The notes beneath the pieces are model-generated. The model had not been told where the DNA came from and made no database searches. It saw only the letters and a list, made by a program, of their open reading frames with translations. A program made the position numbers and the translations under genes. A stretch of 63,773 nt of DNA, the filler included, from Stramenopiles sp. TOSAG23-3 (taxonomy: Eukaryota), in the NCBI GenBank assembly GCA_900128585.1. It is 14 parts of 14 records of this genome, joined end to end, with 100 filler letters (N's around TTAATTAATTAA, not from the genome) between each part and the next. Parts side by side here need not be neighbours in the genome. Positions count along the whole stretch, not along the records: positions 27,580 to 32,986 come from LT643535.1; 13 more parts are not named here. One strand, given 5' to 3'. Positions 16,825 through 58,254 of this stretch are shown here, in pieces (position 1 is the first letter of the stretch; each line of letters starts with the position of its first letter).

Positions 16825-18285
16825 TTACTTCTCTGGCGTCTCTTCAAACTTGAGGCCAAACTTCTTAAACGATTCCATCCTATGGTGCCTGTGCCCACCG
16901 TGCGAATTCAAAATCCAGGACCAGTGACCGCCGGCCTGCTTCTTTGGCACACTTGGCTTTGTCACATTGCCAGTCGCGCCCACCTTTTTTCCTATGCGTC
17001 GGGTGCGTTCGTCCTGCACAATCTTATTATAGCCTGTTGCACCACTAGCGGCGCCGGTTGAACCTGTATTGTCCTGTTCTGCGGCTTCCGCAACACCAGT
17101 GGGACTTGCTCCCCCGGAAGCTGCTCCTGGCCCTCCGGAAGCTGTTCCTGCCCCCCCGGAAGCCGCTCGTGCCCCCCCGGAAGCTGCTCCTGTCGTGCCA
17201 GAGGCGGCGGCCCCGGCGTGCCCCTTGCGGTGGTATTCGATATACTTTTCGAGATCTTTCAATTCTTCTGGTTTGACTTTCGGCTCGTCGTTCTTTGCGC
17301 AGGGGCCAGTGGCTCCCGACGCAGATCCGGTCGCGCCCGAGGCCGTGGACCCAGTCGCGCCTGAGGCCGTGGACCCAGTCGCGCCCGAGGCCGTGGACCC
17401 AGTCGCGCCCGAGGCCGTGGAACCAGTCGCGCCCGAGGCCGTGGAACCAGTCGCACCCGATGCGCCCGAGGCGGCTCCTGTTTTGGCCGCAGCGGTAGTG
17501 GTGGACTGTTTCGTCGATCCAGTGGCGGAACCAGTGGCGGAACCAGTGGCGGAACCAGTGGCGGAACCAGTGACGGATCCAGTGGCGGATCCAGTGGCTC
17601 TGACGGTCGCCTTTGCTGCCGCGCCAGTGATGCCTGAGGAGGCGGTGGCGCCGGTTGCGCCCGTGCTCGTTCCCGTTCGGCCAAGGTCACTGTGCTTGGA
17701 ACCAGTCGTGATGGGTCCCTTTGACTTTCGTGCCCCGGTCATACCACTAGTTGGTATGTTCGTGGCGGTTGCACCTGTACTATCTTTCGCTGCCTTGGCG
17801 GCTCCCGTAGCGCCGGTGGCGCCCGTAGCGCTCTTCTTGGCCTTGCTGCCGGTGGCGCCCGTGGCGCTCTTCTTGACCTTGCTGCCGGTGGCGCCCGTGG
17901 CTTTTTTTGCACTACCGGTGGCCCCGGATGCGGTGCCGGTGGCGCCAGTCGCGCCCGTCGCGCCCGTCGCGCCCGTCGCGCCAGAGGCTGCCCCGGTGGT
18001 ACCCGCGTTTATGCCGTTCTTCTTATCTTCCTCGGCCTCCGCCTTGGCTTCTTGGGAAACTACTTCGTTGGTGGACTCTTCGTCCATCTTGGTCAAAAGC
18101 CGCGAGACTTCTGCCTCGATGACGTGTTGGCTCGTACTATCGGCCGCCCCTGTTCCGCCGATCGGTTGAACCTGCCTCGACCGTTTGATTCGTTCCCCTC
18201 TAATATTACCGGCGACGGCCCATGACGGCAAACCTACAAGCAAGACCAAACCTAACAACAAAACTATTCTTTTGTTGAAGACCAT
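16825..18285 (-). CDS. Secreted Gly/Ala/Thr/Ser-rich repeat protein
   Basis: Signal peptide [25 protein letters not shown]; (GAT)n, (GSAT)n and (GATGSTAS)n repeats. Confidence 0.8.
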
Positions 18286-18999
18286 GCTCGCTTGGCTATT
18301 TTTAAACAACTCCAAACAAAACAAAGAAACAACCTACACAGTTGGTAAGGACAATTCTAGGTTCCGTACACAACCACAGACGTAACTGCTTAAAGAACCA
18401 ATATTTTCTTCACATCTCATGGATATATCTCTTCTTTCCTTGAATGCAAACATCCAAACGTATACATTGATTTAAAATCAAGCAAAACCAAATTGTTTCA
18501 CTCTTCTCTTATATATAAAGAACGACAATTCCCCTCTCCCTCCCTCCCTCTCTCTCCCTCTTCCTTCCTTTCATTTGTATACTATACTGCTGTACTGCTG
18601 TAGTAAACAAACAGTAAACAAATTATTTTATTATCTTCTAATTAATTTAGAATTTAAAATAGAAATAGCAGCTCTTCGAAGTTTTTCCTTTCTTTCCTTA
18701 TTACACTGTATTGTATACTATGTATTTATATTTTAATAGTCTATTAATATAATATTATTATAGTTATAATCTTTATATATTTAATACTATATACAATTTA
18801 TAAGTACATAATGTTTATTCTTTACCTATTTATACTCATTTAAAAATCTTCTATGATTCTTAACGTAAGAAGATTAAAATAACATCAAAATAGAATAGGA
18901 TTACATTCCTATAGTATGAACCTATTATTATTGTCTTGAGATTTGATCCCCCTTTTTTTTTAATTAAAATTTTATTAAAATTGAAAAATGACACCTTCA

Positions 19000-19168
19000 T
19001 TCCTCCTCTTCTTCTTTTTTCTCTTCTCTTTCCTTCTCTTCTCTTTCCTTCTCTTCTCTTTCCTTCTCTTCCTTCTCTTCTCTTCCTTCTCTTCCTTCTC
19101 TCTCTTCTCTCTTCTCTTTCCTTCTCTTCCTTCTCTCTCTTCTCTTCCTTCTCTTCCTTCCTTCCCCA
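19000..19168. repeat. Polypyrimidine low-complexity tract
   Basis: About 165 nt of C/T only, with CTCTT/CCTT units. Confidence 0.9.
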
Positions 19169-19811
19169 TCCAATCCATCATTATACATTATTTGTACATA
19201 TTATAGCTAAATAGAGAGAGAAGAGAGATATTCTGATATTCTAAAAAGGAAGAGAAAGAAAGACCTTTTTTAATTTGACTTGTTGTTTTGTTCTTACTAA
19301 TAACGAACTGCTGTATTTAAATTTAATACTGTGTCTGTTGCTTTTATTCCTATTTTTTTTTTTGTCAGTTCTTGCTGCTGTAGTTAGCTGAAGTAATCAA
19401 TCTTTGGCTTGTTGGTACAGTACGAGGTCGTATAATATTAATACCGGTACAGGTAACAGGTAATGATTAACAATTATTAATCTCTTCTTCTTCTTATTTG
19501 TTGTGTTGAGAAGAGATATGGAGGATATTTTTTATCTTCTTTTTTTTCTTCTCTTTTTTTCTTCTTCTTTTTTTTCTTCTTCTTTTTTTTTTTTTTTTTC
19601 ATCATCTTCTTCTTCTCTCATTCTTCATCATCACATCATCTTTCTTTTTTCTTCCTGACAAACACACAAACATACCACACACCCTTTATTTGTCCGTAGA
19701 AATATTGACAATGACAAAAATGATTGAAAACAAAGTATTTGATTACATCCGTCATGGTCTCTTTCTCATCTTGCCTGTCTGCCCTCCCATTCTTTGAGAC
19801 TTTAACCCACA

Positions 19812-20981
19812 ATGGACTTTGTGCGCGGCGTAGTGTCCAAGAAGAAAGTGCGGTACGTCGACCACCAGCATGGGTTTAACTTGGATCTAACGTACATACC
19901 GACCGGCGTCCCGTTCCCGGGCCTAGAGATTGACAAAACGTACAGCGCCGGGAAGAAGCCGGAGAGGACGCAGCTCATCGCAATGGGGTTTCCCTCCGAA
20001 GGAACGGAAGGGTTGTACAGAAATCCTATCAAGGAAGTCCGCCGTTTCTTCAACCTATTCCACAAGGACAAATTCAAGATCTACAACCTTTGCAGCGAGA
20101 AGGCGTACGAGGTCGAGAAGCTGTTCACGTCCTCGAGCGGGCCCGGGTCCCCCCCGAACAACAACATTTCCCACGCGCGGACCGCACGGTATGGCTTCGA
20201 CGACCACAACCCGCCTCCGCTTGCACTGATGCTCCCATTCTGCAACGACCTGGAGAAATGGCTGGCCGAGGACCCGGAGAACGTCGCCTCGATTCACTGC
20301 AAGGCGGGGAAGGGGCGGACGGGGACGCTGATCTGCGTCTACCTGGTGCACTCCGGGCGGTACACGGCGGAGGAGGCCCTCGAGAGCTTTGGGAACGCCC
20401 GGACGGCCAACGGGAAGGGCGTCACGATCCCGTCCCAGCAGCGGTATGTATATTACTATGAGCAGATGCGGCTCCGAAGCCACACCATCACCGAGTACAC
20501 GTTCCAGATCCTTCACATCCGCCTGGTCCAAGTACCCACCTGCGAGGGCGCCCTCCAGGGGTACGGGTGTGAGCCGTCGTTTTCCATTTTTCAGCAGGCG
20601 TACACGGAGGCGGGGGGGCAGTGCCTTTCTGAGACGACCAAGATTTACGATTTTTCCGAGCACTCGGCCATTCGGCACTTTAAAAAGGACGAACGGTTCG
20701 TCGACCTGGACTGCTCAGACCACGGTGTCCTCCTCAAGGGCGACATCAAGCTACAGTTTTACCACCGGGAGGACAAAATCTGCCACGTCTGGTTCAACAC
20801 CGCCTTCATCGAGAACAACTACCTGTGCTTCGAGAAGACGGTGGTGGACAAGGCGTGCAGGGACAAGGACAACGCCCGGTTCGACCCGAACTTTAAAATA
20901 GAAATATACCTGAAACGGAACGAGATGGGCACGATGGAGAAGCCGTCCACGCGGCGGAGCCTGGGGAATCTCACCTCATAA
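19812..20981 (+). CDS. PTEN: PTEN-family phosphoinositide 3-phosphatase with C2 domain
   Basis: VSKKKVRY..LDLTYI, IAMGFP, FDDHNPP, HCKAGKGRTG, TIPSQQRY, WFNTAF. Confidence 0.97.
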   Translation: MDFVRGVVSKKKVRYVDHQHGFNLDLTYIPTGVPFPGLEIDKTYSAGKKPERTQLIAMGFPSEGTEGLYRNPIKEVRRFFNLFHKDKFKIYNLCSEKAYEVEKLFTSSSGPGSPPNNNISHARTARYGFDDHNPPPLALMLPFCNDLEKWLAEDPENVASIHCKAGKGRTGTLICVYLVHSGRYTAEEALESFGNARTANGKGVTIPSQQRYVYYYEQMRLRSHTITEYTFQILHIRLVQVPTCEGALQGYGCEPSFSIFQQAYTEAGGQCLSETTKIYDFSEHSAIRHFKKDERFVDLDCSDHGVLLKGDIKLQFYHREDKICHVWFNTAFIENNYLCFEKTVVDKACRDKDNARFDPNFKIEIYLKRNEMGTMEKPSTRRSLGNLTS

Positions 20982-30759: not shown

Positions 30760-31736
30760 GATTGACGATTAAGTGGCTTGAGTGAGTGAATAACTATTCG
30801 CTATCAAACTATTCAACAGATGTTGCAAGATAAATGTGCAGGTATCTAATAAATGTGTTTTGTAAAGCGTGGCGGGCGATGTAGATGGTGCGTGTGCATT
30901 CTTCATTGATTGTACATATAAATATACATGTAATTATTATTATATTTATTATTATTATTATTATGGCTTATTATTATTATTCATTTTATTGTGCTTGCTG
31001 CATCATATTATATTATTATTATTTGTCCCTCTTCTCCTTTTTGTTGACGCATCAATTTGAGAGAGGATCGATGGAATGAGGAAAAATACGCCGGGAATAG
31101 CAGCTTAGGTAGTAGTAAGTATAGTAATGCACCCCTCCCCCCTCCCCGCCCGCCCGGCCCCCGCCCGGTCGATGGGAGGATGATGGTTTATAATACATTA
31201 AAATAGTCGTCGTCTAGTATAGGTTGGTTTATTTATTATTTTATACTATAAATTCAAAAATATATAGTATATATTAATATGTAGTATAATCCTTAATCAT
31301 ATAATAAGGTTATTGTTATTTATTATGTTACAAGACAGACCAACACCATCGAAGGAGAAGAAGTTTCACGGTTTGTACGATGGTTTCATATTAAAATACT
31401 GTAGTTTAGTACTTGGTATTACGGTAGAGAACGAGAAGAAAGAAGTTGTTTTTTTTAGCGTCTTCTTCTTGCGTCTTCTTCTTTCTTACTTCTTTTTTTC
31501 TTCTTCTTCTTTTGTTCTACTGTGTACATATAGTAGTACCGGTAGTAGTGGTGGGTGGATGGTGAAAAAATCGTTGTTGTTGTTCGATTTGTTATTCTCT
31601 TAGAACTTGAAGTAGGAGAAGTGTTTCGTTGTGAATGATTCCGTATCTTTTGATAAGTCATCGAAATATTGGCTGGTGATAGGAAACATTTCGTGTTTTG
31701 CTTGTGTGCTGTGCATGCCAACTGACTGTCTGTTCC

Positions 31737-32561
31737 ATGTTAGAGACGGAGGAAAAGGAGCAAACGCAAAAGTCTGTGCCACCACCTGACGCAGGTCAAA
31801 GCGAGGAGGATAACTCCGCGGAGGTGAAAATACCCATCTACACCGTGACCCAAACGATAGAAGAAAGTAAACAGGCAGACCGTGCTTTGGGTGAAAGCAT
31901 GCCTTTGATGACTGTCCATATCCATGGGTATAAAACCTGTAATTTTTTTAGAGAAGCGGTATACCACGCAAAGCTCGTGGAGAAGAAAGGGCTCATCAAG
32001 TTGGAAGTGAAGGGCTACGTAGAACGAAGCGTTTATTTCCGGTGGCTGAAAGAAGAGAGCTCGAAACTGATTCCATGCGGAGTAGATCACGATACCTCGC
32101 CGTTGGTGTGGAAAGATTCTGGTGGGAAAAAGAGTAACAACTGTGAATACATCGGCGGCGCCAACGAATTTCTGGTATTTCTAAAAGACGATTTTGGAAT
32201 TGGGCCTGGGGGGGCAAAGGTTATCAAGAACTGTGGCTTTACGTACAAAACGTTGGGCAAACGGGATAAAGGGAGGCTCATAATATCGGGTTTCATTTTT
32301 CTCGTCACGTGCGCCTTTGGGGCATACCTTCTCATAAATCCTACCGCAGACAAGCAAATGCGGTGGACATTATTTCCGGGCTTGTACGTGGCCTTTGTCG
32401 TGGCCGGGCAGGTGTTGGTGTTATGAGTCAAAGAAGCGTTTGTTAGTGTTTTGAAAGGAACCGCTACCAAACAGACAACGGCGAGGGTGTTCATGCTGCT
32501 GTTTATACCGTTAGTATTGACCTGCGGTATATGCATGTTGCTCACTCAACTGCCGTTTTAA
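31737..32561 (+). CDS. Glutaredoxin-like + membrane-domain protein; candidate selenoprotein (TGA 32424-32426 read as Sec; 274 aa)
   Basis: GYKTCNFF, TSPLVW and YIGG Grx-like motifs. The frame continues past TGA as VKEAFVSVLKG...VFMLLFIPLVLTCGICMLLTQLPF to TAA at 32559-32561. Confidence 0.72.
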
Positions 32562-32589
32562 ACGCATTCCTGCGTGAATGCGCTGTATT

Positions 32590-32663
32590 TAATCGTTGCG
32601 ATGAAATTCTTTCCCAGAAAATTAGCATAGTTGCACTGGAAAAATGTGAATTGAGCAAATAAT
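32590..32663 (+). promoter_or_regulatory. Candidate eukaryotic SECIS element (type II-like)
   Basis: ATGA at 32601, a 12-13 nt arm, AAAA at 32618, mini-stem GCA-TAGT-TGC, a complementary arm and GA at 32648 or 32653. Confidence 0.65.
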
Positions 32664-32809
32664 ATCTATAATATCATTAAAAAATTAAAATAAAAAAACA
32701 AGAAAAATCGGCTGTTATTTTAATGTAGTAAAATTAAAAAATTAAAGAAAAAATAAGGTGTCAGTTCAAGAACAATATCTCCTCCTATTGCAGATCCTCC
32801 CCAAATTCT

Positions 32810-32986
32810 GGTCAAGATTCCAATTGATTGGTCTTAAAAGTAAACAGCGGCATAAATGTTTTAAAGTGGGCTCGTTGTCTGTGGTACTGCTCAATGAAAT
32901 AATTATTGGTATTGAGTTTGATCGTTTCGTGGTCGTATACACATACAGATGTAAGTGTACCTTCTGGGAATCCTAAACGGCTAGGC
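32810..32986 (-). CDS. Possible 3' end of an unknown gene cut by the contig edge
   Basis: Frame open from the edge: PSRLGFPEGTLTSVCVYDHETIKLNTNNYFIEQYHRQRAHFKTFMPLFTFKTNQLES*. Confidence 0.35.
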
Positions 32987-33330
32987 NNNNNNNNNNNNNN
33001 NNNNNNNNNNNNNNNNNNNNNNNNNNNNNNTTAATTAATTAANNNNNNNNNNNNNNNNNNNNNNNNNNNNNNNNNNNNNNNNNNNNAGGAGTTTGGGTTC
33101 TTGAACGGTTTTACCTTCTTTTTTCTTTTCTTTTTTGACTTAAAACATACTATATATAATTTGTCTATAATATATAAATGATTACGAAAACCGGAGGAGC
33201 CGAAGTGTACGGAAAACAAAATAAACAAATTACCACAAGAAATAAAATGTTATCATATTATATTAAAACAAAAACCTTTTGAATATTGTGTCAGATTTAT
33301 TCATTGTGATACGGAACGTATGTGCCGTTT

Positions 33331-36300
33331 TCATTCATCTGCCGTCTCCGCAAGACTCCACAGTGCCTCTTGCTCATCGTCCAACAGTTGACGGATCACT
33401 TTCACTCTATTTCGCCCGAGAAACCCACGGACAATCCGTTGCATCTCAGTTGCACCAAAGTCTTTAACTTTTCTTGTACGGCGCAAATGCTTCCGGTACG
33501 CACGTTGAATTCTCTTTGCAGCGTCGGTTTGTTTCTCTTTCATAACTCTCTGCTGATCAGCTTTCGTCATCCGTTCGAACTTTTTCCGTTCTTCGAATTC
33601 CAGTTGTTTTTTGTATTCTCGCCATAACGTAAACAAACGCATCAGCTCGTCTTCGGAGTCAAGGACATTATGCATCATTGCACGGGACACGTCGCGATAA
33701 TGCACAAGTAGGAGGGACAGTTTTGCGCAAACATCCTCCACGACTTTCGCGGCTCGCATTTCCATCACGTAGCGAGATATATTCTTTTGTCGTTCCTTCT
33801 CTCTAAGTTCTTTGTACGTCGGTTCACTGTCTGTGCTTGTAGTATCGTCGTCACTGCTGGACTCACCACTGCTTTCAGTTTCGTCCATGTGTTTCAATGT
33901 CGCATTTCGTTCCAAACGCAACATTTCCGAAGGCGTTACCGCACTCATTTCACTCAAGTGTTCCAATTCTACAAGGTCCCCGATGGCAATCTGCAAGACC
34001 CCAATGGTTTTCTCGTTATGATCGAGTATGGGTGCCGATATCAAATCTGTATTAGGTTGGAACAAGTCGCTGTTTCCGTTGAACAAGGCATCGTTATAGG
34101 CATCTCGAACAATACACGATTGTTTGGACGAGAGTACCTCTCCGGTGATTCCTGAGAACAGGTCTGTGTAATGCCTTACGTTTGTAACACCCTTCTCCGA
34201 CAAACCCACTTCTTCACGAACATGCCACACTTTCAACATTGAGTTCATCATCCGGTGCTGATTTAACCGGGCACGGCCAGGACCATTTTCAGAAGCACGG
34301 GCTCGCCCTCCAAATATGTTTGTTTTTTTCTTGCCAACCCCCAGCGCCTTCGACAACTTTCGACTTTTTAAGGCAATCTCTAGTTGGTGGGATCCTAAGT
34401 TGCCCGATACGGGGTGCACCGCAGGGTGGCCAGGGGGGGTTCCTACTACAAATACGCGGGCCCCTTGGACGCGCAGAAACTGCCGCACCTGCGCTTCTAT
34501 TGATCCTACCAACTTGATGGGATCCACTTTTTCTATCGACGGCATGTATGGTAAGTAGCCGCGCATGCAATTGAACGTCAGGTTAGACAAGTGGCTCAAG
34601 TACGAAAACTGCTTTTCAACCAGGGTTTCTGCTTCGACCCGTTGAATCGCGAGTGCCACTCCCTTTGCGGCTATGTTCATGAACGCTTCATCGATTTTGT
34701 CAAAGGACGCGGCCGTTGCCTGGGCTGAGAGGTCATTTGCTTGAAGCCCAGTGTTCGGCCGAAGTTTTTTGTTAAAGGCTTGAAGAATTGATATCACGCG
34801 AGGCTTTGATGCAATCGACATGCTGCGAGACCGTTGTTTCATGTTGGGAGAAATTTGCGAGTCGTCAGATGCCTCTTCTATGGATACTACAGGCGTGGAA
34901 ATAACGCACCTGGTATCCACGGTTCCAAAGACCCCATCTGCTTCCACGTCTAGATTAAACCGTCGATCGTAGTTTGCTTCGTTCATTATAATGCTGTCGT
35001 GTTTCATCTCCTCAGCGTCTTTCATGATGAGCGCGGAGATGCTTTTCTTAGTCGACGGGAAGTAGCCACGCTCACCCGACCGCCTTGGTATGGTCCAAAA
35101 CGTTTCTGTTTCAGATTCGAATACTTGTATAATGCCGTACTCGCACTCCATTGCCGCCGGCAGGTAATCCACAACCGACGTGGCAATTTTCTCCATGGTC
35201 TTTACAAGACTAAGTTGGTCGCTCAACCTTATCAGGGCGCGGCAGCGTGTGATGGCCCGGGCAATCTCGTCCGCGTCACCATCTTCCCGGGCCTGGAGCA
35301 GGGCCGACAACAGGGCCGGCTCAGAATCGAATATCTTCGTCATCATTGTCGTGAGGGGCGCCTGTTTCGTAATTCGTGGGGGGCGTTTTCGCGCCATCTC
35401 TTCGCGTTCTTTCTTCTCTTTGTCTGTCGGTGGTCGTTGTGCTTCAAGCTGCTTCTGCGTAGTTTTGTACAACGTGCGCAGCCTCTTGATTTCCGCGTGG
35501 GCGCGTTCAAGGCGCAATTCTAAATCTTCTGCTTTTTTTTGAACGCGTGTGCGGAACAGCTGTTCTGTTTTCAACGACCGCTCCATTTCCCCCTTTTCTT
35601 GGGCTAACAGCATCAGCGCCCGTTTGTACGCCTTTTCCGCCGATTTTTTGCTGTCTCTTACAAAGGACATTTGGTTCGTTTGGTTTTGGCCCGGGGCACG
35701 TTTTGCGTTGGTTTGTTTGCTGTCTGGACTGTTCTGTCTAAATGCGCCACCCGTGCGACGCCGTTCGGCCATCATTCGTTTCCGCTGGGCATTTTCTTCC
35801 TTTGCAATACGCTCATGATCTTCCCGGCACTGCTCCAACGCCTGTTGGACGCTTAAGTATTTATTCTTAAACCCTTTTGCAGTCGCAGCTTGTATGGTTG
35901 CGTTGGTCTCTGCCTGGATCGCAGACTTGTGATTTCCAGTTGCAGCCGACTGGAACTCTTTCGATTTTTTTTGGTAGTAAGAAGCGCGTTTTCTGGAAGC
36001 AGAAAGCTTTTCGTTAAGCACTTTATTGTTGCTTTTCAGAGTTCGAATTTCTTTTTTCTGGGATTCCATTTGCTGGTAGCAAAGGCTAAGTCTCTGCGTC
36101 GCGCCTTCCATGGCAGTGGTGAACAGTGCAGACTGTTCGTCTATCTCGGACACCGCCGATGCAAGCGACATGGACATCCCAGTGTCTTCGTGCACGTCAT
36201 TCGCACGACGCCTCGAGGGACTCTCACTAACATTGTCATGGATCACGGGGAGCGTCATTGATTTCGATTTTGTCATGTAATCGGTACGCTCCAAAGTCAG

Positions 36301-56432: not shown

Positions 56433-58254
56433 TCAAATGGGAATCCTGCTTTTATGAAGGCCGTACCGTGATATTTTCGAGTACTTTGCCAGGTCGTTCG
56501 ATTTCTGCAGAAAAAGAAAGTGAGGGAACTGTTAGTACGTTGGGCGCAAGAGGAAAGAGCTTTTCGATACCGTACCGCATACGCCTGCAACCACCAGTCA
56601 CGGTGCTGCGCAGTACAAGCCGAGGGGGAACGGGAAAATAACACACACACACAGAGAAAAAACGGAGAAACCCAATACGGATTCAACAAATCAGCCAGAG
56701 GTCAGTGGAAGGAACAGGTACATGACAACTTACTGCTGTAGGAGAATAGATCCCTCCATGGTCCATACGTTGAAAACCAGCGGCTTGAAGCTTCAAGCTG
56801 CTATCAATTAAAAGCCACAAGCCCAACAGCGTCTTCAAGGCCACGACGCAACAGAAGAGCAGCCCGAGTATTAAGACCGTCTGCGCCGTCGAGTACGTCC
56901 ACGTCCGATCGCTCACGTGCAGATAAATTATACGCAAAGAAACGCAGGCCAAGGGAATGTTCGGTAGCCCCAACCGCCTGGAAAGCAAGTGCGTGTGGTC
57001 TAGGACTTTCCGCTGCGACCGTGTACGGGAGGATGTCAAGTCGTGCCGCAAGACTGCCTCAAAGTGCGCGTAGACGTCCAGGGACATCCGGTTGAACTTG
57101 GAAATAAAAGCGTGCTTGACCCAGTCTACGCCGACTTCGCAGCAAAAAATGACCGACGCGGAGTACACAAAGTTGCCAAAGTCGTAGTCCCGTCGAAGGC
57201 CTTCCGTTCCTATCAGTATCAGAAAAAGGACAATGTTGAACCGCTCCACAATATCCGCGCAGGCTATTTGAAAGAGGTTCTCCGCCTGAAACCGTTTGAA
57301 CACGCTCGATTTTAGTTCTATAAAGTTGTTCGAGATGAGGAGCGTCAACAAGGCATTGTCTTTCGTGTTGATTGCAACGTTCAGGGCAACCATGCGGGCA
57401 AAGGTGAGCGCACCGTGGACCATGGCGTACAGCAGACCTGCGATGGACATTGCAAAAATTTTGCACTTGCGGTCCCACGGACGATTCTGCGTCGCCCAGT
57501 GCAACGAATCAAAAATATCCTGCCCCAAGGCAGTCAGGAGCTTGTCAAATATGTCCAGCAAATTGAAAATGACGTACAGCCGCATGAAGGAAAGCATTTT
57601 TATGTAATGGTACGCTCGAGACATGTCGAGGTAGCCGATCGACCACGCGGCAATGATGAGCGTAATGGTCCTCAAAAGTATATACACATGTTGGCGAGCA
57701 AACATGCCCTGAAGGTTCGGGAACAGGTGTTTCACTGGGTATGTCAAAATCTTGCTAGCCAACAGCAAGAACGCCCAGAGCGCCCGCAACGGCAGGTACG
57801 TGAACACGTACAAGAAAGAGTCCGTGGCAAGGATAAGCCCATAAAGCATTAAGCTCTCTACTTTCAGCGGAATCTTCACCATAGACAATACCAGCTGCTG
57901 CTCTTCCCACCCCAGCGCCGCCTCAGTGTCATGAACGAAGTCCCTGTCCATAGTGCCAGTCATCTCCAGCCGCAGGTAGTCCAAGAAGGACACTTTGTTG
58001 GAACTTGCGTCGGCGACCTTGACCTTTCTCGGCGGGGTCGCGGCCGTAGTATCGACTTTTGGGTAGTCTTTTCCTCCTTTCAAATTCCCAGACAACGCGC
58101 GCCGACGATAAAGGGTGGAGTCGGCAGCATTGCTTTGAAACGATTTCTCCCGGACCTCACAGTTTTCATTCCCCGAGCCTTTCATTCTCTGCTCCAACAA
58201 GGCCAACCTTTGCGCCAGTAAACTAATTTCATCCCGTAAGCTGCCGTCCGCCAT
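56433..58254 (-). CDS. TAPT1: TAPT1/Emp65 (DUF747) membrane protein; exons 58254-56734, 56605-56576, 56504-56433
   Basis: LNVAIN...LLISNNFIELKSSVFKRF, DIVERF, VDWVKHAFI.KFN. GT-AG introns restore a family-like tail KISRYGLHKSRIPI. Confidence 0.9.

What the first reader, a model, noticed from the sequence alone, without database searches (positions are those of the whole stretch)
31737..32663. Candidate new selenoprotein: glutaredoxin-like domain fused to a membrane domain, with in-frame UGA and SECIS-like hairpin
Seen: the ORF-track stop (TGA 32424) falls at the end of a hydrophobic helix (…FVVAGQVLVL*). The same frame continues for 44 codons with coding-like composition and a further TM helix, ending at TAA 32559. 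About 40 nt later lies ATGA-AATTCTTTCCCAG-AAAA-tta-GCA tagt TGC-a-CTGGAAAAATGTGAATT-GA. This fits the established eukaryotic SECIS layout: AUGA core, about 12-nt helix II, unpaired AA, mini-stem and GA (two pairing registers, both imperfect). The Grx-like domain has a single Cys (CNFF). Inference: residue 230 is Sec. From memory, the membrane part resembles small bacterial proteins with 'RxxLFxP…Q…C-V/A', which would give a Sec/Cys pair; this is unverified. I do not recognise this architecture among known eukaryotic selenoproteins.
Basis: partly seen in the sequence, partly recalled or inferred. Interest (0 to 1): 0.88.

Follow-up and report, generated by a model that had tools for sequence, protein, structure and literature searches.

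The report
Likely new membrane selenoprotein gene
A gene of an unnamed marine micro-eukaryote most likely reads its apparent TGA stop as selenocysteine, giving a membrane protein with a glutaredoxin-like head that matches no selenoprotein family I could find described.

Summary
The ORF 31737-32423 runs into TGA 32424. The frame stays open for 44 codons to TAA 32559, and 39 nt later lies an AUGA...AAAA...GA hairpin.

The open frame alone is not unusual. Three things show the extension is coding:
- Its codon usage is coding-like, unlike 17 of 17 post-stop controls.
- A 76-aa relative, P0027, aligns without a gap across the TGA, shares the five residues just after it, and has a tail of the same 44 residues.
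- Two relatives at about 40% identity, P0013 and P0014, are annotated as ending exactly at this codon.

The TGA stands in all 11 near-identical database variants, in a second contig, and in RNA-library contigs of two studies. No splice removes it.

A SECIS-like descriptor of my own finds this hairpin only, in the whole window. 4 of 2000 shuffles of the 200 nt after the TAA pass it. Rfam gives no SECIS hit.

No Cys homologue was found. P0027 shows W at the site. The DNA of homologues and the Sec machinery could not be checked.

The N-terminal domain has a glutaredoxin fold of the MDH1B-N type.

Verdict: probably a real selenoprotein of an undescribed family, about 0.8.

The parts
31737..32423 (+). 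First 229 codons of the gene. They comprise a disordered acidic N-terminus (residues 1-56), a Grx-fold domain, a basic linker and two hydrophobic helices. Databases annotate this part alone as a 229-aa hypothetical protein.
   Evidence: RNA-library contigs start at 31709-31758 and cover it.
31905..32201 (+). Glutaredoxin-fold domain (residues 57-155) of the MDH1B N-terminal type. It carries the conserved Cys68 (TGT 31938-31940, motif C-N-F-F), T-S-P at 120-122 and G-G at 140-141.
   Evidence: The AlphaFold model gives b-a-b-a-b-b-a over residues 59-153, with pLDDT block means of 62-93. Foldseek matches MDH1B chains at E 3.9e-5 and 1.8e-4, and glutaredoxins with TM 0.56-0.63. The profile against PDB sequences matches MDH1B at E 2.4e-8 and glutaredoxins at E 0.002-0.007. 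W103, L104 and P122 are invariant; H118, G140 and G141 are nearly so.
32280..32336 (+). Hydrophobic helix 1 (residues 182-200). A K/R-rich linker precedes it (6 K/R in residues 160-178).
   Evidence: Kyte-Doolittle 19-residue window peak of 2.34. The model has a helix at 175-200.
32373..32423 (+). Hydrophobic helix 2 (residues 213-229). It ends in the conserved G-Q-x-L-x-L stretch just before the TGA.
   Evidence: Conservation is seen in alignment A1.
32424..32426 (+). In-frame TGA, codon 230, the proposed selenocysteine codon.
   Evidence: It is present in the window, in 11 of 11 cluster variants (which all end here) and in contig L001. RNA-library contigs of runs X8 and X16 bridge it with no variant and no joint. 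P0013 and P0014 end at the aligned position, and P0027 has W there.
32427..32558 (+). 44-codon extension: an amphipathic basic stretch (residues 231-250, 4 K/R) and hydrophobic helix 3 (residues 251-269, coordinates 32487-32543). TAA follows at 32559-32561.
   Evidence: Coding-like codon usage and a GC of 0.455, against 0.384 in the UTR and 0.15 further downstream. P0027 aligns across the site, shares the first five residues after it, and its tail is also 44 residues.
32596..32658 (+). SECIS-like hairpin in the short 3' UTR. Helix I pairs 32596-32599 with 32655-32658. The core is AUGA 32601-32604 with GA 32653-32654. Helix II pairs 32605-32617 with 32636-32652 (12 pairs, 1 unpaired nt on the 5' side, 5 on the 3' side). 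Unpaired AAAA lies at 32618-32621 and the apical mini stem-loop at 32622-32635.
   Evidence: The constrained fold gives -9.5 kcal/mol with 12 and 4 pairs. It is the only pass of the descriptor in the window. 4 of 2000 local shuffles pass and 0 of 2000 are as good. One RNA-library contig (X17) carries C>T at 32615, turning a C-G pair into U-G. Against: Rfam gives no SECIS hit. The nucleotide after the GA is G, where the published core consensus KGAW asks for A or U (passage of PMC3753652).

Best explanation
The gene encodes a 274-residue membrane selenoprotein. UGA at codon 230 is read as selenocysteine, directed by the SECIS-like hairpin that fills most of the roughly 100-nt 3' UTR.

The protein has these parts in order:
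- a disordered acidic N-terminus;
- a monothiol glutaredoxin-fold domain of the MDH1B N-terminal type, with conserved Cys68;
- a basic linker;
- two transmembrane helices;
- Sec230 at the end of helix 2;
- a basic amphipathic stretch;
- a third transmembrane helix.

By the positive-inside rule, the Grx-like domain and the Sec loop lie on the same (cytosolic) face.

Inferred mechanism, not shown: the selenolate at the membrane surface attacks an oxidised membrane-borne substrate, such as a lipid hydroperoxide or another oxidised lipid or protein thiol. The resulting selenenic acid or selenenyl-sulfide is resolved by Cys68 of the tethered Grx-like domain or by glutathione bound to it. This would be an intramolecular Se-S relay.

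Shown here:
- the TGA is real and unspliced;
- the sequence after it is coding and conserved;
- divergent homologues are annotated as ending at the same codon;
- the hairpin has the SECIS layout and is rare by chance at this place;
- the N-terminal domain has a Grx fold.

Inferred:
- that the inserted residue is Sec rather than Trp or Cys;
- the topology;
- the substrate and the relay.
For: (1) The TGA is real and constant. 11 of 11 near-identical cluster members end at it. L001 is identical from 32424 to 32690. RNA-library contigs X8 (31711-32630) and X16 (31758-32628), from two studies, bridge it with no variant at 32424-32426. No joint was found anywhere in 31450-32850.

(2) The extension is coding.
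- Codon score is +0.12 in frame, against -0.82 and -0.20 out of frame. That is the 21st percentile of true coding chunks. 17 of 17 post-stop controls score -0.04 or lower.
- GC is 0.455, against 0.48 in the CDS, 0.384 in the UTR and 0.15 downstream.

(3) Homology across the site. In an exhaustive phmmer search of 1.84 billion representatives, P0027 (76 aa) matches query residues 205-269 at E 3.8e-4. The alignment is ungapped across the TGA, the five residues after the site are identical, and both tails are 44 residues long. The extension alone against P0027 gives 7 of 11 identities, pairwise E 0.002.

(4) The truncation signature.
- P0013 (39% identity, E 9e-33) and P0014 (40%, E 2e-28) end exactly at the residue before the site.
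- The four members of P0014's 42-member cluster whose sequences I read end the same way. 13 of the 15 listed members have the same length of 183 aa.
- P0022 and P0023 end one residue later.

(5) The SECIS-like hairpin.
- It has an AUGA/GA core, 12-bp helix II, unpaired AAAA 13 nt after the core and a 4-bp helix I.
- It is the sole hit in 127.5 kb of sequence counting both strands.
- 4 of 2000 shuffles of the 200 nt after the TAA pass, and 0 of 2000 are as good.
- It starts 177 nt after the UGA and lies inside the stretch covered by RNA-library contigs, which reach 32628-32660.
- The one variant seen in it keeps a pair (C-G to U-G).

(6) TGA is not a general sense codon here. Long ORFs of up to 1517 codons lack it, and 3 of the 20 other long ORFs stop at TGA.

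(7) The Grx fold and conserved Cys68.

(8) A relative, P0026, carries the same N-domain. It breaks off at what I recall as the deiodinase Sec motif. One of the 10 members of A1 hits Pfam T4_deiodinase at E 5.9e-4. So this domain occurs in Sec-using protists.
Against: - No Rfam SECIS family matches, even at E up to 10 on 141 nt.
- The hairpin is not more stable than shuffles: z +1.18, and 180 of 200 fold as well.
- Its 3' core reads U-G-A-G, where the published consensus is KGAW.
- Helix II is lopsided, with 1 unpaired nt against 5.
- I set the thresholds of my descriptor after seeing the candidate. The window as a whole is not enriched: 1 hit against a mean of 1.87 in 30 shuffles.
- No homologue has Cys at the site. 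The only clean homologue that crosses it, P0027, shows W.
- P0017 also continues past the region without an evident Cys or Sec match. BLASTP finds no alignment between the extension and P0017.
- I could not see the DNA of any homologue, so the TGA at the ends of P0013 and P0014 is inferred.
- tRNA-Sec, SBP2, eEFSec, PSTK, SepSecS and SPS2 could not be searched for, because no genome is held. There is no tRNA in the window.
- Population variation in the extension and hairpin is almost nil, so there is no covariation test.
Confidence: 0.8

Rival explanations
1. Programmed stop-codon read-through without selenium. UGA 230 is a leaky stop decoded now and then by a near-cognate tRNA (Trp, Cys or Arg). 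This would give a short two-helix isoform and a longer three-helix isoform. The hairpin would be incidental or a read-through stimulator.
For: - The extension is coding and conserved, which fits any kind of read-through.
- P0027 shows W at the site. W is what a TGG codon, or Trp insertion, would give.
- There is no curated SECIS model hit.
- The Sec machinery is unverified.
Against: - The hairpin has the AUGA / AA / GA layout at the right distances. It passes a descriptor that only 4 of 2000 local shuffles pass.
- The stop is kept at the same codon in lineages only about 40% identical.
- The codon after the TGA is GTC. This is not the UGA-C/CUAG context I recall as promoting read-through (recalled, not tested).
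- A relative of the N-domain family is itself truncated at a deiodinase-type Sec site.
Confidence: 0.12
2. TGA 32424 is the true stop and the protein is 229 residues. The open frame behind it and the hairpin are chance or relics.
For: - All database gene calls stop here.
- 44 open codons after a stop is not unusual in this window: 5 of 20 other ORFs have 33-76.
- The hairpin is no more stable than shuffles.
Against: - The extension scores as coding, while 17 of 17 post-stop controls do not.
- It is homologous to the tail of P0027, with equal length and identical first five residues.
- A relic could not stay intact while P0013 and P0014 diverged to about 40% identity with the stop at the same codon.
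Confidence: 0.05
3. An assembly or splicing artefact. The TGA is an error, or it is removed by a small intron in the mature mRNA.
For: None was found. The window is a concatenation of contigs (N runs with a linker from 32987), but the gene lies inside one contig.
Against: - The TGA stands in 11 of 11 cluster variants and in L001.
- Two RNA-library contigs from different studies bridge it.
- No joint was reported in 31450-32850.
Confidence: 0.02

Closest known systems
Eukaryotic selenoprotein genes with a 3'-UTR SECIS, the general system (SECISearch3/Seblastian paper, PMC3753652)
   Same: In-frame UGA with conserved coding sequence on both sides. Annotation truncated at the UGA. A 3'-UTR stem-loop with an AUGA...AA...GA layout 177 nt downstream.
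   Different: The hairpin gets no score from Rfam's SECIS models. It departs from the KGAW core consensus at the last position. No Cys-containing homologue was found.
MSP, the 'membrane selenoprotein' of Ostreococcus, Chlamydomonas, Volvox and Dictyostelium, and 'hypothetical proteins 1-3' of Ostreococcus (Lobanov et al. 2007, PMC2375036); the 'Hypo' family of Jiang et al. 2020 (PMC7539508)
   Same: Predicted membrane or uncharacterised selenoproteins confined to unicellular eukaryotes with large selenoproteomes (passages read).
   Different: MSP is described as having two Sec residues, and this gene has one in-frame TGA. The papers' main texts give no sequences and supplements were closed, so identity with MSP, Hypo or hypothetical 1-3 could not be tested. 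Ostreococcus SECIS elements are described as mostly GUGA-type with a long mini-stem. This one is AUGA-type with a short one.
SELENOK and SELENOS (membrane-anchored selenoproteins)
   Same: Small membrane proteins with Sec in the C-terminal part, on a cytosolic stretch (recalled).
   Different: Those have one N-terminal anchor and Sec near the very C-terminus in a disordered tail (recalled). Here Sec sits between helices 2 and 3, and an N-terminal Grx-fold domain is present. No Pfam family, SelK and SelS models included, matches any of the 10 members of A1 at E up to 10.
N-terminal domain of MDH1B (putative malate dehydrogenase 1B, radial-spoke protein; PDB 9fqr_Xq, 9d2f_F) and classical glutaredoxins
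   Same: The same Grx-type fold and shared motifs: Cys at the start of helix 1, W-L, H-x-[TS]-S-P, and G-G-x-x-E-F. Profile E is 2.4e-8 to MDH1B and 0.002-0.007 to glutaredoxins. Foldseek gives E 3.9e-5.
   Different: There is no malate dehydrogenase part. There is a single active-site Cys (C-N-F-F) instead of C-P-Y-C. The domain is fused to a three-helix membrane part with the recoded UGA. No Pfam glutaredoxin hit reaches threshold.
Thioredoxin-glutathione reductase (TGR): a Grx domain and a C-terminal Sec in one chain (recalled)
   Same: A glutaredoxin-type domain tethered to a distant Sec redox centre in the same polypeptide. This is the logic I propose here.
   Different: TGR is a soluble flavoenzyme with a G-C-U-G end. 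Here there is no flavin domain and Sec lies at a membrane interface. The likeness is one of working principle, not of family, and it was not tested.

Membership tests
Eukaryotic selenoprotein gene (Sec-UGA plus SECIS) | In-frame UGA with coding, conserved sequence on both sides | tested here: met
Eukaryotic selenoprotein gene (Sec-UGA plus SECIS) | UGA present in independent DNA and in transcripts, and not spliced out | tested here: met
   The evidence is contigs of RNA libraries, which may also hold DNA.
Eukaryotic selenoprotein gene (Sec-UGA plus SECIS) | Homologues with UGA or Cys aligned to the Sec | tested here: inconclusive
   Two homologues end exactly at the site and two end one residue later, but their stop codons were not seen. 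One has W, and none has Cys. DNA of homologues could not be reached.
Eukaryotic selenoprotein gene (Sec-UGA plus SECIS) | SECIS element in the 3' UTR: UGAN/KGAW core, unpaired AA in the apical part, helix lengths within bounds | tested here: inconclusive
   My own descriptor is met and the hit is rare by chance. Rfam models give no hit. The last core position is G, not W. SECISearch3 is not available.
Eukaryotic selenoprotein gene (Sec-UGA plus SECIS) | Sec machinery in the same genome (tRNA-Sec, SBP2, eEFSec, PSTK, SepSecS, SPS2) | not testable with these tools
   No genome is held for the window. There are no tRNA genes in the window.
Glutaredoxin / thioredoxin-fold superfamily | b-a-b-a-b-b-a fold with a cis-Pro loop | tested here: met
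Glutaredoxin / thioredoxin-fold superfamily | C-x-x-C or C-G-F-S active site, and a score above a curated glutaredoxin family cut-off | tested here: not met
   The motif is C-N-F-F. There is no Pfam hit at E up to 1. NCBIfam GrxA is matched only weakly, by 2-3 of 10 relatives. It has a Grx fold but is not a member of a curated Grx family.
MSP (membrane selenoprotein, Lobanov 2007) | Two Sec residues, and sequence similarity to MSP | tested here: inconclusive
   There is one in-frame TGA here, against two Sec stated for MSP. No MSP sequence was available to compare.
Q ... C) | Detectable sequence similarity, with Cys aligned to residue 230 | tested here: not met
   Only sub-threshold hits were found: DUF4153 at E 0.019 (14.6 bits against a cut-off of 27) and PRK10873 at E 0.014 (15.8 against 162). 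There were no bacterial-type hits among the 18. Profile-profile comparison with such families was not possible.

The most novel reading that the evidence does not exclude
This is the founding member of an undescribed family of membrane-embedded selenoproteins of marine protists. In it a selenocysteine at the cytosolic mouth of a transmembrane helix is recycled by a tethered monothiol glutaredoxin-like (MDH1B-N-type) domain. That would make a self-contained Se-S relay that repairs or senses oxidised membrane lipids or membrane-protein thiols. The same N-domain also serves a deiodinase-like selenoprotein in another protist, which suggests a dedicated 'Sec-servicing' module.
Probability: 0.3. Interest if true: 0.72.

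Novelty: new variant of a known kind. Interest (0 to 1): 0.6.

Why it matters
Selenoprotein genes are routinely cut short in annotation, and this one is filed everywhere as a 229-residue hypothetical protein.

If the reading is right, it adds a new family and a new architecture to the eukaryotic selenoproteome: a Grx-fold head, three membrane helices and Sec at a membrane interface. It comes from an organism that is widespread in marine metagenomes and metatranscriptomes. 20 of the 24 listed runs, from 14 studies, hold the stretch or a part of it.

It also gives a concrete, testable case of a tethered thiol-selenol relay at a membrane. And it flags a SECIS variant that curated models miss, which bears on how complete protist selenoproteome surveys are. 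One survey notes that predicted selenoproteins of Mamiellophyceae often lack a predicted SECIS (passage of PMC6627142).

Tried and rejected
- Rfam scans of 31000-33500 and of 32560-32700 at E up to 10 gave no SECIS family, only chance-level hits.
- The word-index protein search with the read-through protein found only the gene's own cluster. With residues 185-274 and 'shorter' lengths it found no candidate. With P0027 and 'longer' lengths it found none at E up to 1 among 161 candidates.
- I looked for the DNA of homologues, to see the codon at the site.
  - The metagenome scan found only L001, the same species at 99%.
  - Genome contigs gave none with P0014 or P0022.
  - Viral contigs gave none with P0014, P0027, P0013, P0022 or P0017.
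- The Atlas search of the 229-aa ORF gave a best score of 0.86, below the 0.9 lead level. The Atlas search of the window's alpha-glucosidase gave no usable hint on taxonomy.
- A scan for other TGA-interrupted coding frames in the window gave 22 places, mostly antisense to real ORFs. None has a SECIS-like hairpin.
- The TGA-terminated DUF747 gene (56683-58254, 76 open codons after its stop) gains no domain when read through. All 17 post-stop controls score as non-coding.
- Coverage gaps (nothing laid on 31450-31684, and thin cover at 32625-32671) are not used as evidence.
- Six literature searches found no description of a Grx-like plus membrane selenoprotein.
- Considered and dropped: general reassignment of TGA, and an intron over the TGA.
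Full report
**What is in the sequence**

On the + strand an ATG at 31737 opens a frame that runs 229 codons to TGA at 32424-32426. The last residues before it are hydrophobic. The same frame continues for 44 codons to TAA at 32559-32561. ATGA lies at 32601, 39 nt after the TAA. It is followed by a 13-nt arm, AAAA, a short apical stem-loop, a 17-nt return arm and GA.

One detail needs correcting. The 'single Cys' holds only for the active-site position, Cys68. The read-through protein also has Cys at 114, 136, 166, 192, 263 and 266.

**Where it comes from**

- The window looks eukaryotic. It has long intron-poor ORFs with PTEN-C2, ORC6, ceramidase, RCC1, ankyrin and IQ domains, and AT-rich spacers.
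- The gene's product is on record only as a 229-aa 'hypothetical protein' in a cluster of 11 near-identical sequences. One member bears an ocean-survey (small size fraction) label and one comes from a eukaryote protein collection.
- 20 of the 24 listed public runs, from 14 studies, hold the stretch or a part of it. They are marine or seawater metagenomes and metatranscriptomes, plus a coded 'organism A'.
- No whole genome is held, so I treat the source as an unnamed marine micro-eukaryote.
- From 32987 the window has N runs with a linker. It is therefore a chain of contigs, but the gene lies inside one contig, and L001 confirms 31268-32986.

**Is the TGA real and kept in RNA?**

- All 11 cluster members end at the same residue.
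- L001 is 99.1% identical over 1722 aligned positions and has no difference between 32424 and 32690.
- RNA-library contigs X8 (31711-32630) and X16 (31758-32628), from two studies, bridge the TGA. They carry no variant at 32424-32426, and no joint is reported anywhere in 31450-32850.
- A third RNA-library contig (X17) covers 32470-32660.
- These are assembled contigs of RNA libraries. They show presence and continuity, not expression level, and such libraries can hold DNA.

**Is the part after the TGA coding?**

The open frame alone says little. 5 of the 20 other long ORFs have 33-76 open codons behind their stops.

Codon usage does speak. I trained a score on the window's 20 long ORFs.

| Stretch | Score (bits per codon) |
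|---|---|
| Extension, in frame | +0.12 |
| Extension, other two frames | -0.82 and -0.20 |
| CDS before the TGA | +0.24 |
| 17 in-frame post-stop controls | -0.83 to -0.04 |

The extension sits at the 21st percentile of true coding chunks. Its GC is 0.455, against 0.48 in the CDS, 0.384 in the UTR and 0.15 further on.

**Homologues**

An exhaustive phmmer search of 1.84 billion representative proteins with the read-through protein gave 18 hits at E up to 0.001. The informative ones are these.

| Protein | Length | E-value and identity | Behaviour at the site |
|---|---|---|---|
| P0013 | 200 aa | 9e-33, 39% | Ends at the residue aligned just before the TGA |
| P0014 | 183 aa | 2e-28, 40% | Ends at the residue aligned just before the TGA |
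| P0022 | 215 aa | 6.3e-5 | Ends one residue later |
| P0023 | 167 aa | 7.9e-5 | Ends one residue later |
| P0027 | 76 aa, on a 682-nt contig | 3.8e-4, over query 205-269 | Crosses the site with W |
| P0017 | 210 aa | 1.6e-8 | Carries a similar tail |

- P0014 stands for a 42-member cluster. 13 of the 15 listed members are 183 aa long. The two longer ones differ only at the N-terminus.
- P0027 runs without a gap across the site. It has W where the window has TGA. The next five residues are identical, a G-K/G-T turn and a hydrophobic helix follow, and the tail is exactly 44 residues as here.
- The extension alone against P0027 gives 7 of 11 identities, pairwise E 0.002.
- MAFFT places P0017's tail on the extension. 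The stretch before the tail is poorly alignable, and BLASTP finds no alignment between the extension and P0017.

Lineages about 40% identical thus keep a stop at one codon, while the window's DNA still encodes the conserved tail behind it. That rules out an ordinary stop or a recent nonsense mutation. It is the documented signature of a mis-annotated Sec codon: 154 of 538 misannotated cases end exactly at the Sec-UGA (passage of PMC2958745).

**The W in P0027**

I regard it as ambiguous.

- P0027 and P0017 are both gene calls on short metagenome contigs. From memory, common metagenome gene callers can pick a TGA=Trp table for AT-rich contigs, and that would print W for a Sec codon. P0017 also has a W (residue 160) a few residues before its tail that no homologue shares.
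- If the codon is truly TGG, P0027 would be a non-Sec homologue. One paper describes such 'Other-homologs' as common among algal selenoprotein families (section 5 of PMC7539508).

Only the DNA can settle it, and I could not reach it. No homologue with Cys at the site was seen among the 18 hits, and this is the main gap.

**The hairpin**

Under constraints that keep the core and the AA unpaired, the fold gives:
- helix I of 4 pairs (32596-32599 with 32655-32658);
- the AUGA/GA core;
- helix II of 12 pairs;
- unpaired AAAA 13 nt after the core;
- a small apical stem-loop.

The energy is -9.5 kcal/mol.

I wrote a SECIS-like descriptor with these rules: [A/G]UGA; 9-13 nt to AA; a GA return; at least 8 pairs in helix II; at least 3 pairs in helix I; and a closing pair next to the core.
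- It finds this element and nothing else in the 63.8-kb window on both strands.
- Block-wise dinucleotide shuffles of the window give a mean of 1.87 hits, range 0-5 over 30 shuffles. The window as a whole is therefore not enriched, and the point is the place.
- 4 of 2000 shuffles of the 200 nt after the TAA give any pass, and 0 of 2000 give one as good.
- The ten other hits of a looser version all lack a helix next to the core.
- The element starts 177 nt after the UGA and lies within the RNA-library contigs.
- The one variant seen in it (32615 C>T, one contig, depth 4.8) turns a C-G pair into U-G.

Against it:
- Rfam reports no SECIS family, even at E up to 10 on 141 nt.
- The free fold is no more stable than shuffles.
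- The 3' core reads U-G-A-G, where the published consensus is KGAW (passage of PMC3753652).
- Helix II is lopsided.
- I chose my thresholds after seeing the element.

Curated tools are known to miss SECIS elements in some protist lineages (passage of PMC6627142). I therefore weigh the Rfam miss as mild evidence against.

**The protein**

An AlphaFold model of the 229-residue part was built with an 18-sequence alignment. Its mean pLDDT is 66.5, with block means of 62-93 over residues 51-160. It gives b-a-b-a-b-b-a over residues 59-153, then helices at 175-200 and 206-228.
- Foldseek's best matches are two chains named 'putative malate dehydrogenase 1B' in axoneme structures (E 3.9e-5 and 1.8e-4). 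Glutathione transferases and glutaredoxins follow, with TM on target of 0.56-0.63.
- A profile of the family matches the first ~100 residues of MDH1B at E 2.4e-8 and 1.1e-7. It matches glutaredoxins at E 0.002-0.007.
- NCBIfam GrxA models are hit weakly by 2-3 of 10 relatives.
- No Pfam family reaches threshold.

So 'Grx-like' is right at the level of fold, and the nearest sequence relatives are the MDH1B N-terminal domains.

Hydropathy gives three membrane-length segments: 182-200, 213-229 and 251-269. There are 6 K/R before the first, 2 in the first loop and 4 in the loop that starts with residue 230. By the positive-inside rule (established knowledge), the Grx-like domain and residue 230 face the same, cytosolic side.

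**How it most likely works**

- Shown: a real, unspliced, conserved in-frame UGA; a coding conserved tail; a SECIS-like hairpin in the short 3' UTR; and a Grx-fold head with one conserved active-site Cys.
- Inferred: the UGA is decoded as Sec with the help of the hairpin. Sec230, at the cytosolic end of helix 2, reacts with an oxidised membrane-borne substrate. It is then regenerated through Cys68 or through glutathione held by the tethered Grx-like domain.

I put 0.8 on 'selenoprotein' and about 0.3 on the specific relay. The main rival is selenium-independent read-through, at 0.12. A true stop gets 0.05 and an artefact 0.02.

**Comparison with what is known**

It works like any eukaryotic SECIS-dependent selenoprotein gene. 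As a protein it matches none of the families I could check.
- No Pfam model, including those for SelK, SelS and other selenoprotein families, hits any of 10 relatives at E up to 10. The exception is T4_deiodinase for one of them.
- I take that one to be P0026. Its sequence has the same N-domain and a membrane stretch, and it breaks off at what I recall as the deiodinase Sec motif.
- MSP of green algae and Dictyostelium is said to have two Sec.
- The 'hypothetical proteins 1-3' and the 'Hypo' family are given without sequences in the main texts I read, and supplements were closed. I cannot exclude that this family is already listed there.
- Six full-text searches found no description of such an architecture.

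**Verdict**

This is a well-observed finding whose main inference survives testing. It is most likely a new selenoprotein family, a new variant of a known recoding system, in an abundant marine protist. Three things are missing: the codon in homologues' DNA, a SECIS model score, and the Sec machinery of the host. Interest is 0.6.

Noticed in passing
P0026 (238 aa, a transcriptome-derived protein; not in the window): It has the same Grx-like N-domain, followed by a membrane stretch and a C-terminus that breaks off at what I recall as the deiodinase Sec motif. One of the 10 members of alignment A1 hits Pfam T4_deiodinase at E 5.9e-4, and I take that member to be P0026. This suggests the N-domain is a module shared by different selenoproteins.
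   Followed up: partly
window 32740-32850 and 32824-32986 (- strand): In four RNA libraries a 56-nt stretch (32768-32823) sits inside long contigs of 2.2-2.5 kb. Depth there is 100-600, against about 10 for the gene, and there are many loose ends. So it is a repeated or widely shared element. A minus-strand frame is open from the contig end (32985) to a stop just before 32823, which points to a convergent gene cut by the contig end.
   Followed up: partly
window 32987-33060: N runs flank a short all-frame stop linker. The window is therefore a concatenation of contigs, and neighbours across this point need not be adjacent in the genome. L001 continues with different sequence after 32986.
   Followed up: partly
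window 31715-31789 (+): An upstream ATG lies at 31715 in another frame. It opens a 24-codon ORF that overlaps the main start at 31737 and ends in TGA. RNA-library contigs begin at 31709-31725. It could be a uORF.
   Followed up: no
window 56452-58254 (-): A DUF747 (TAPT1-like) membrane protein gene ends in TGA, with 76 further open codons behind it. Reading it through adds no domain, and no SECIS-like hairpin lies nearby.
   Followed up: yes
window 16825-20000: GC skew is strongly negative (-0.28) in 18001-20000. A long open frame of 378 codons runs up to 18167, antisense to the 486-codon ORF 16825-18285. This is unexplained.
   Followed up: no
window 32523-32534 (residues 263-266): A C-G-I-C (CxxC) motif lies inside the third hydrophobic helix. 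P0027 and P0017 do not share it, so it is probably not essential.
   Followed up: partly
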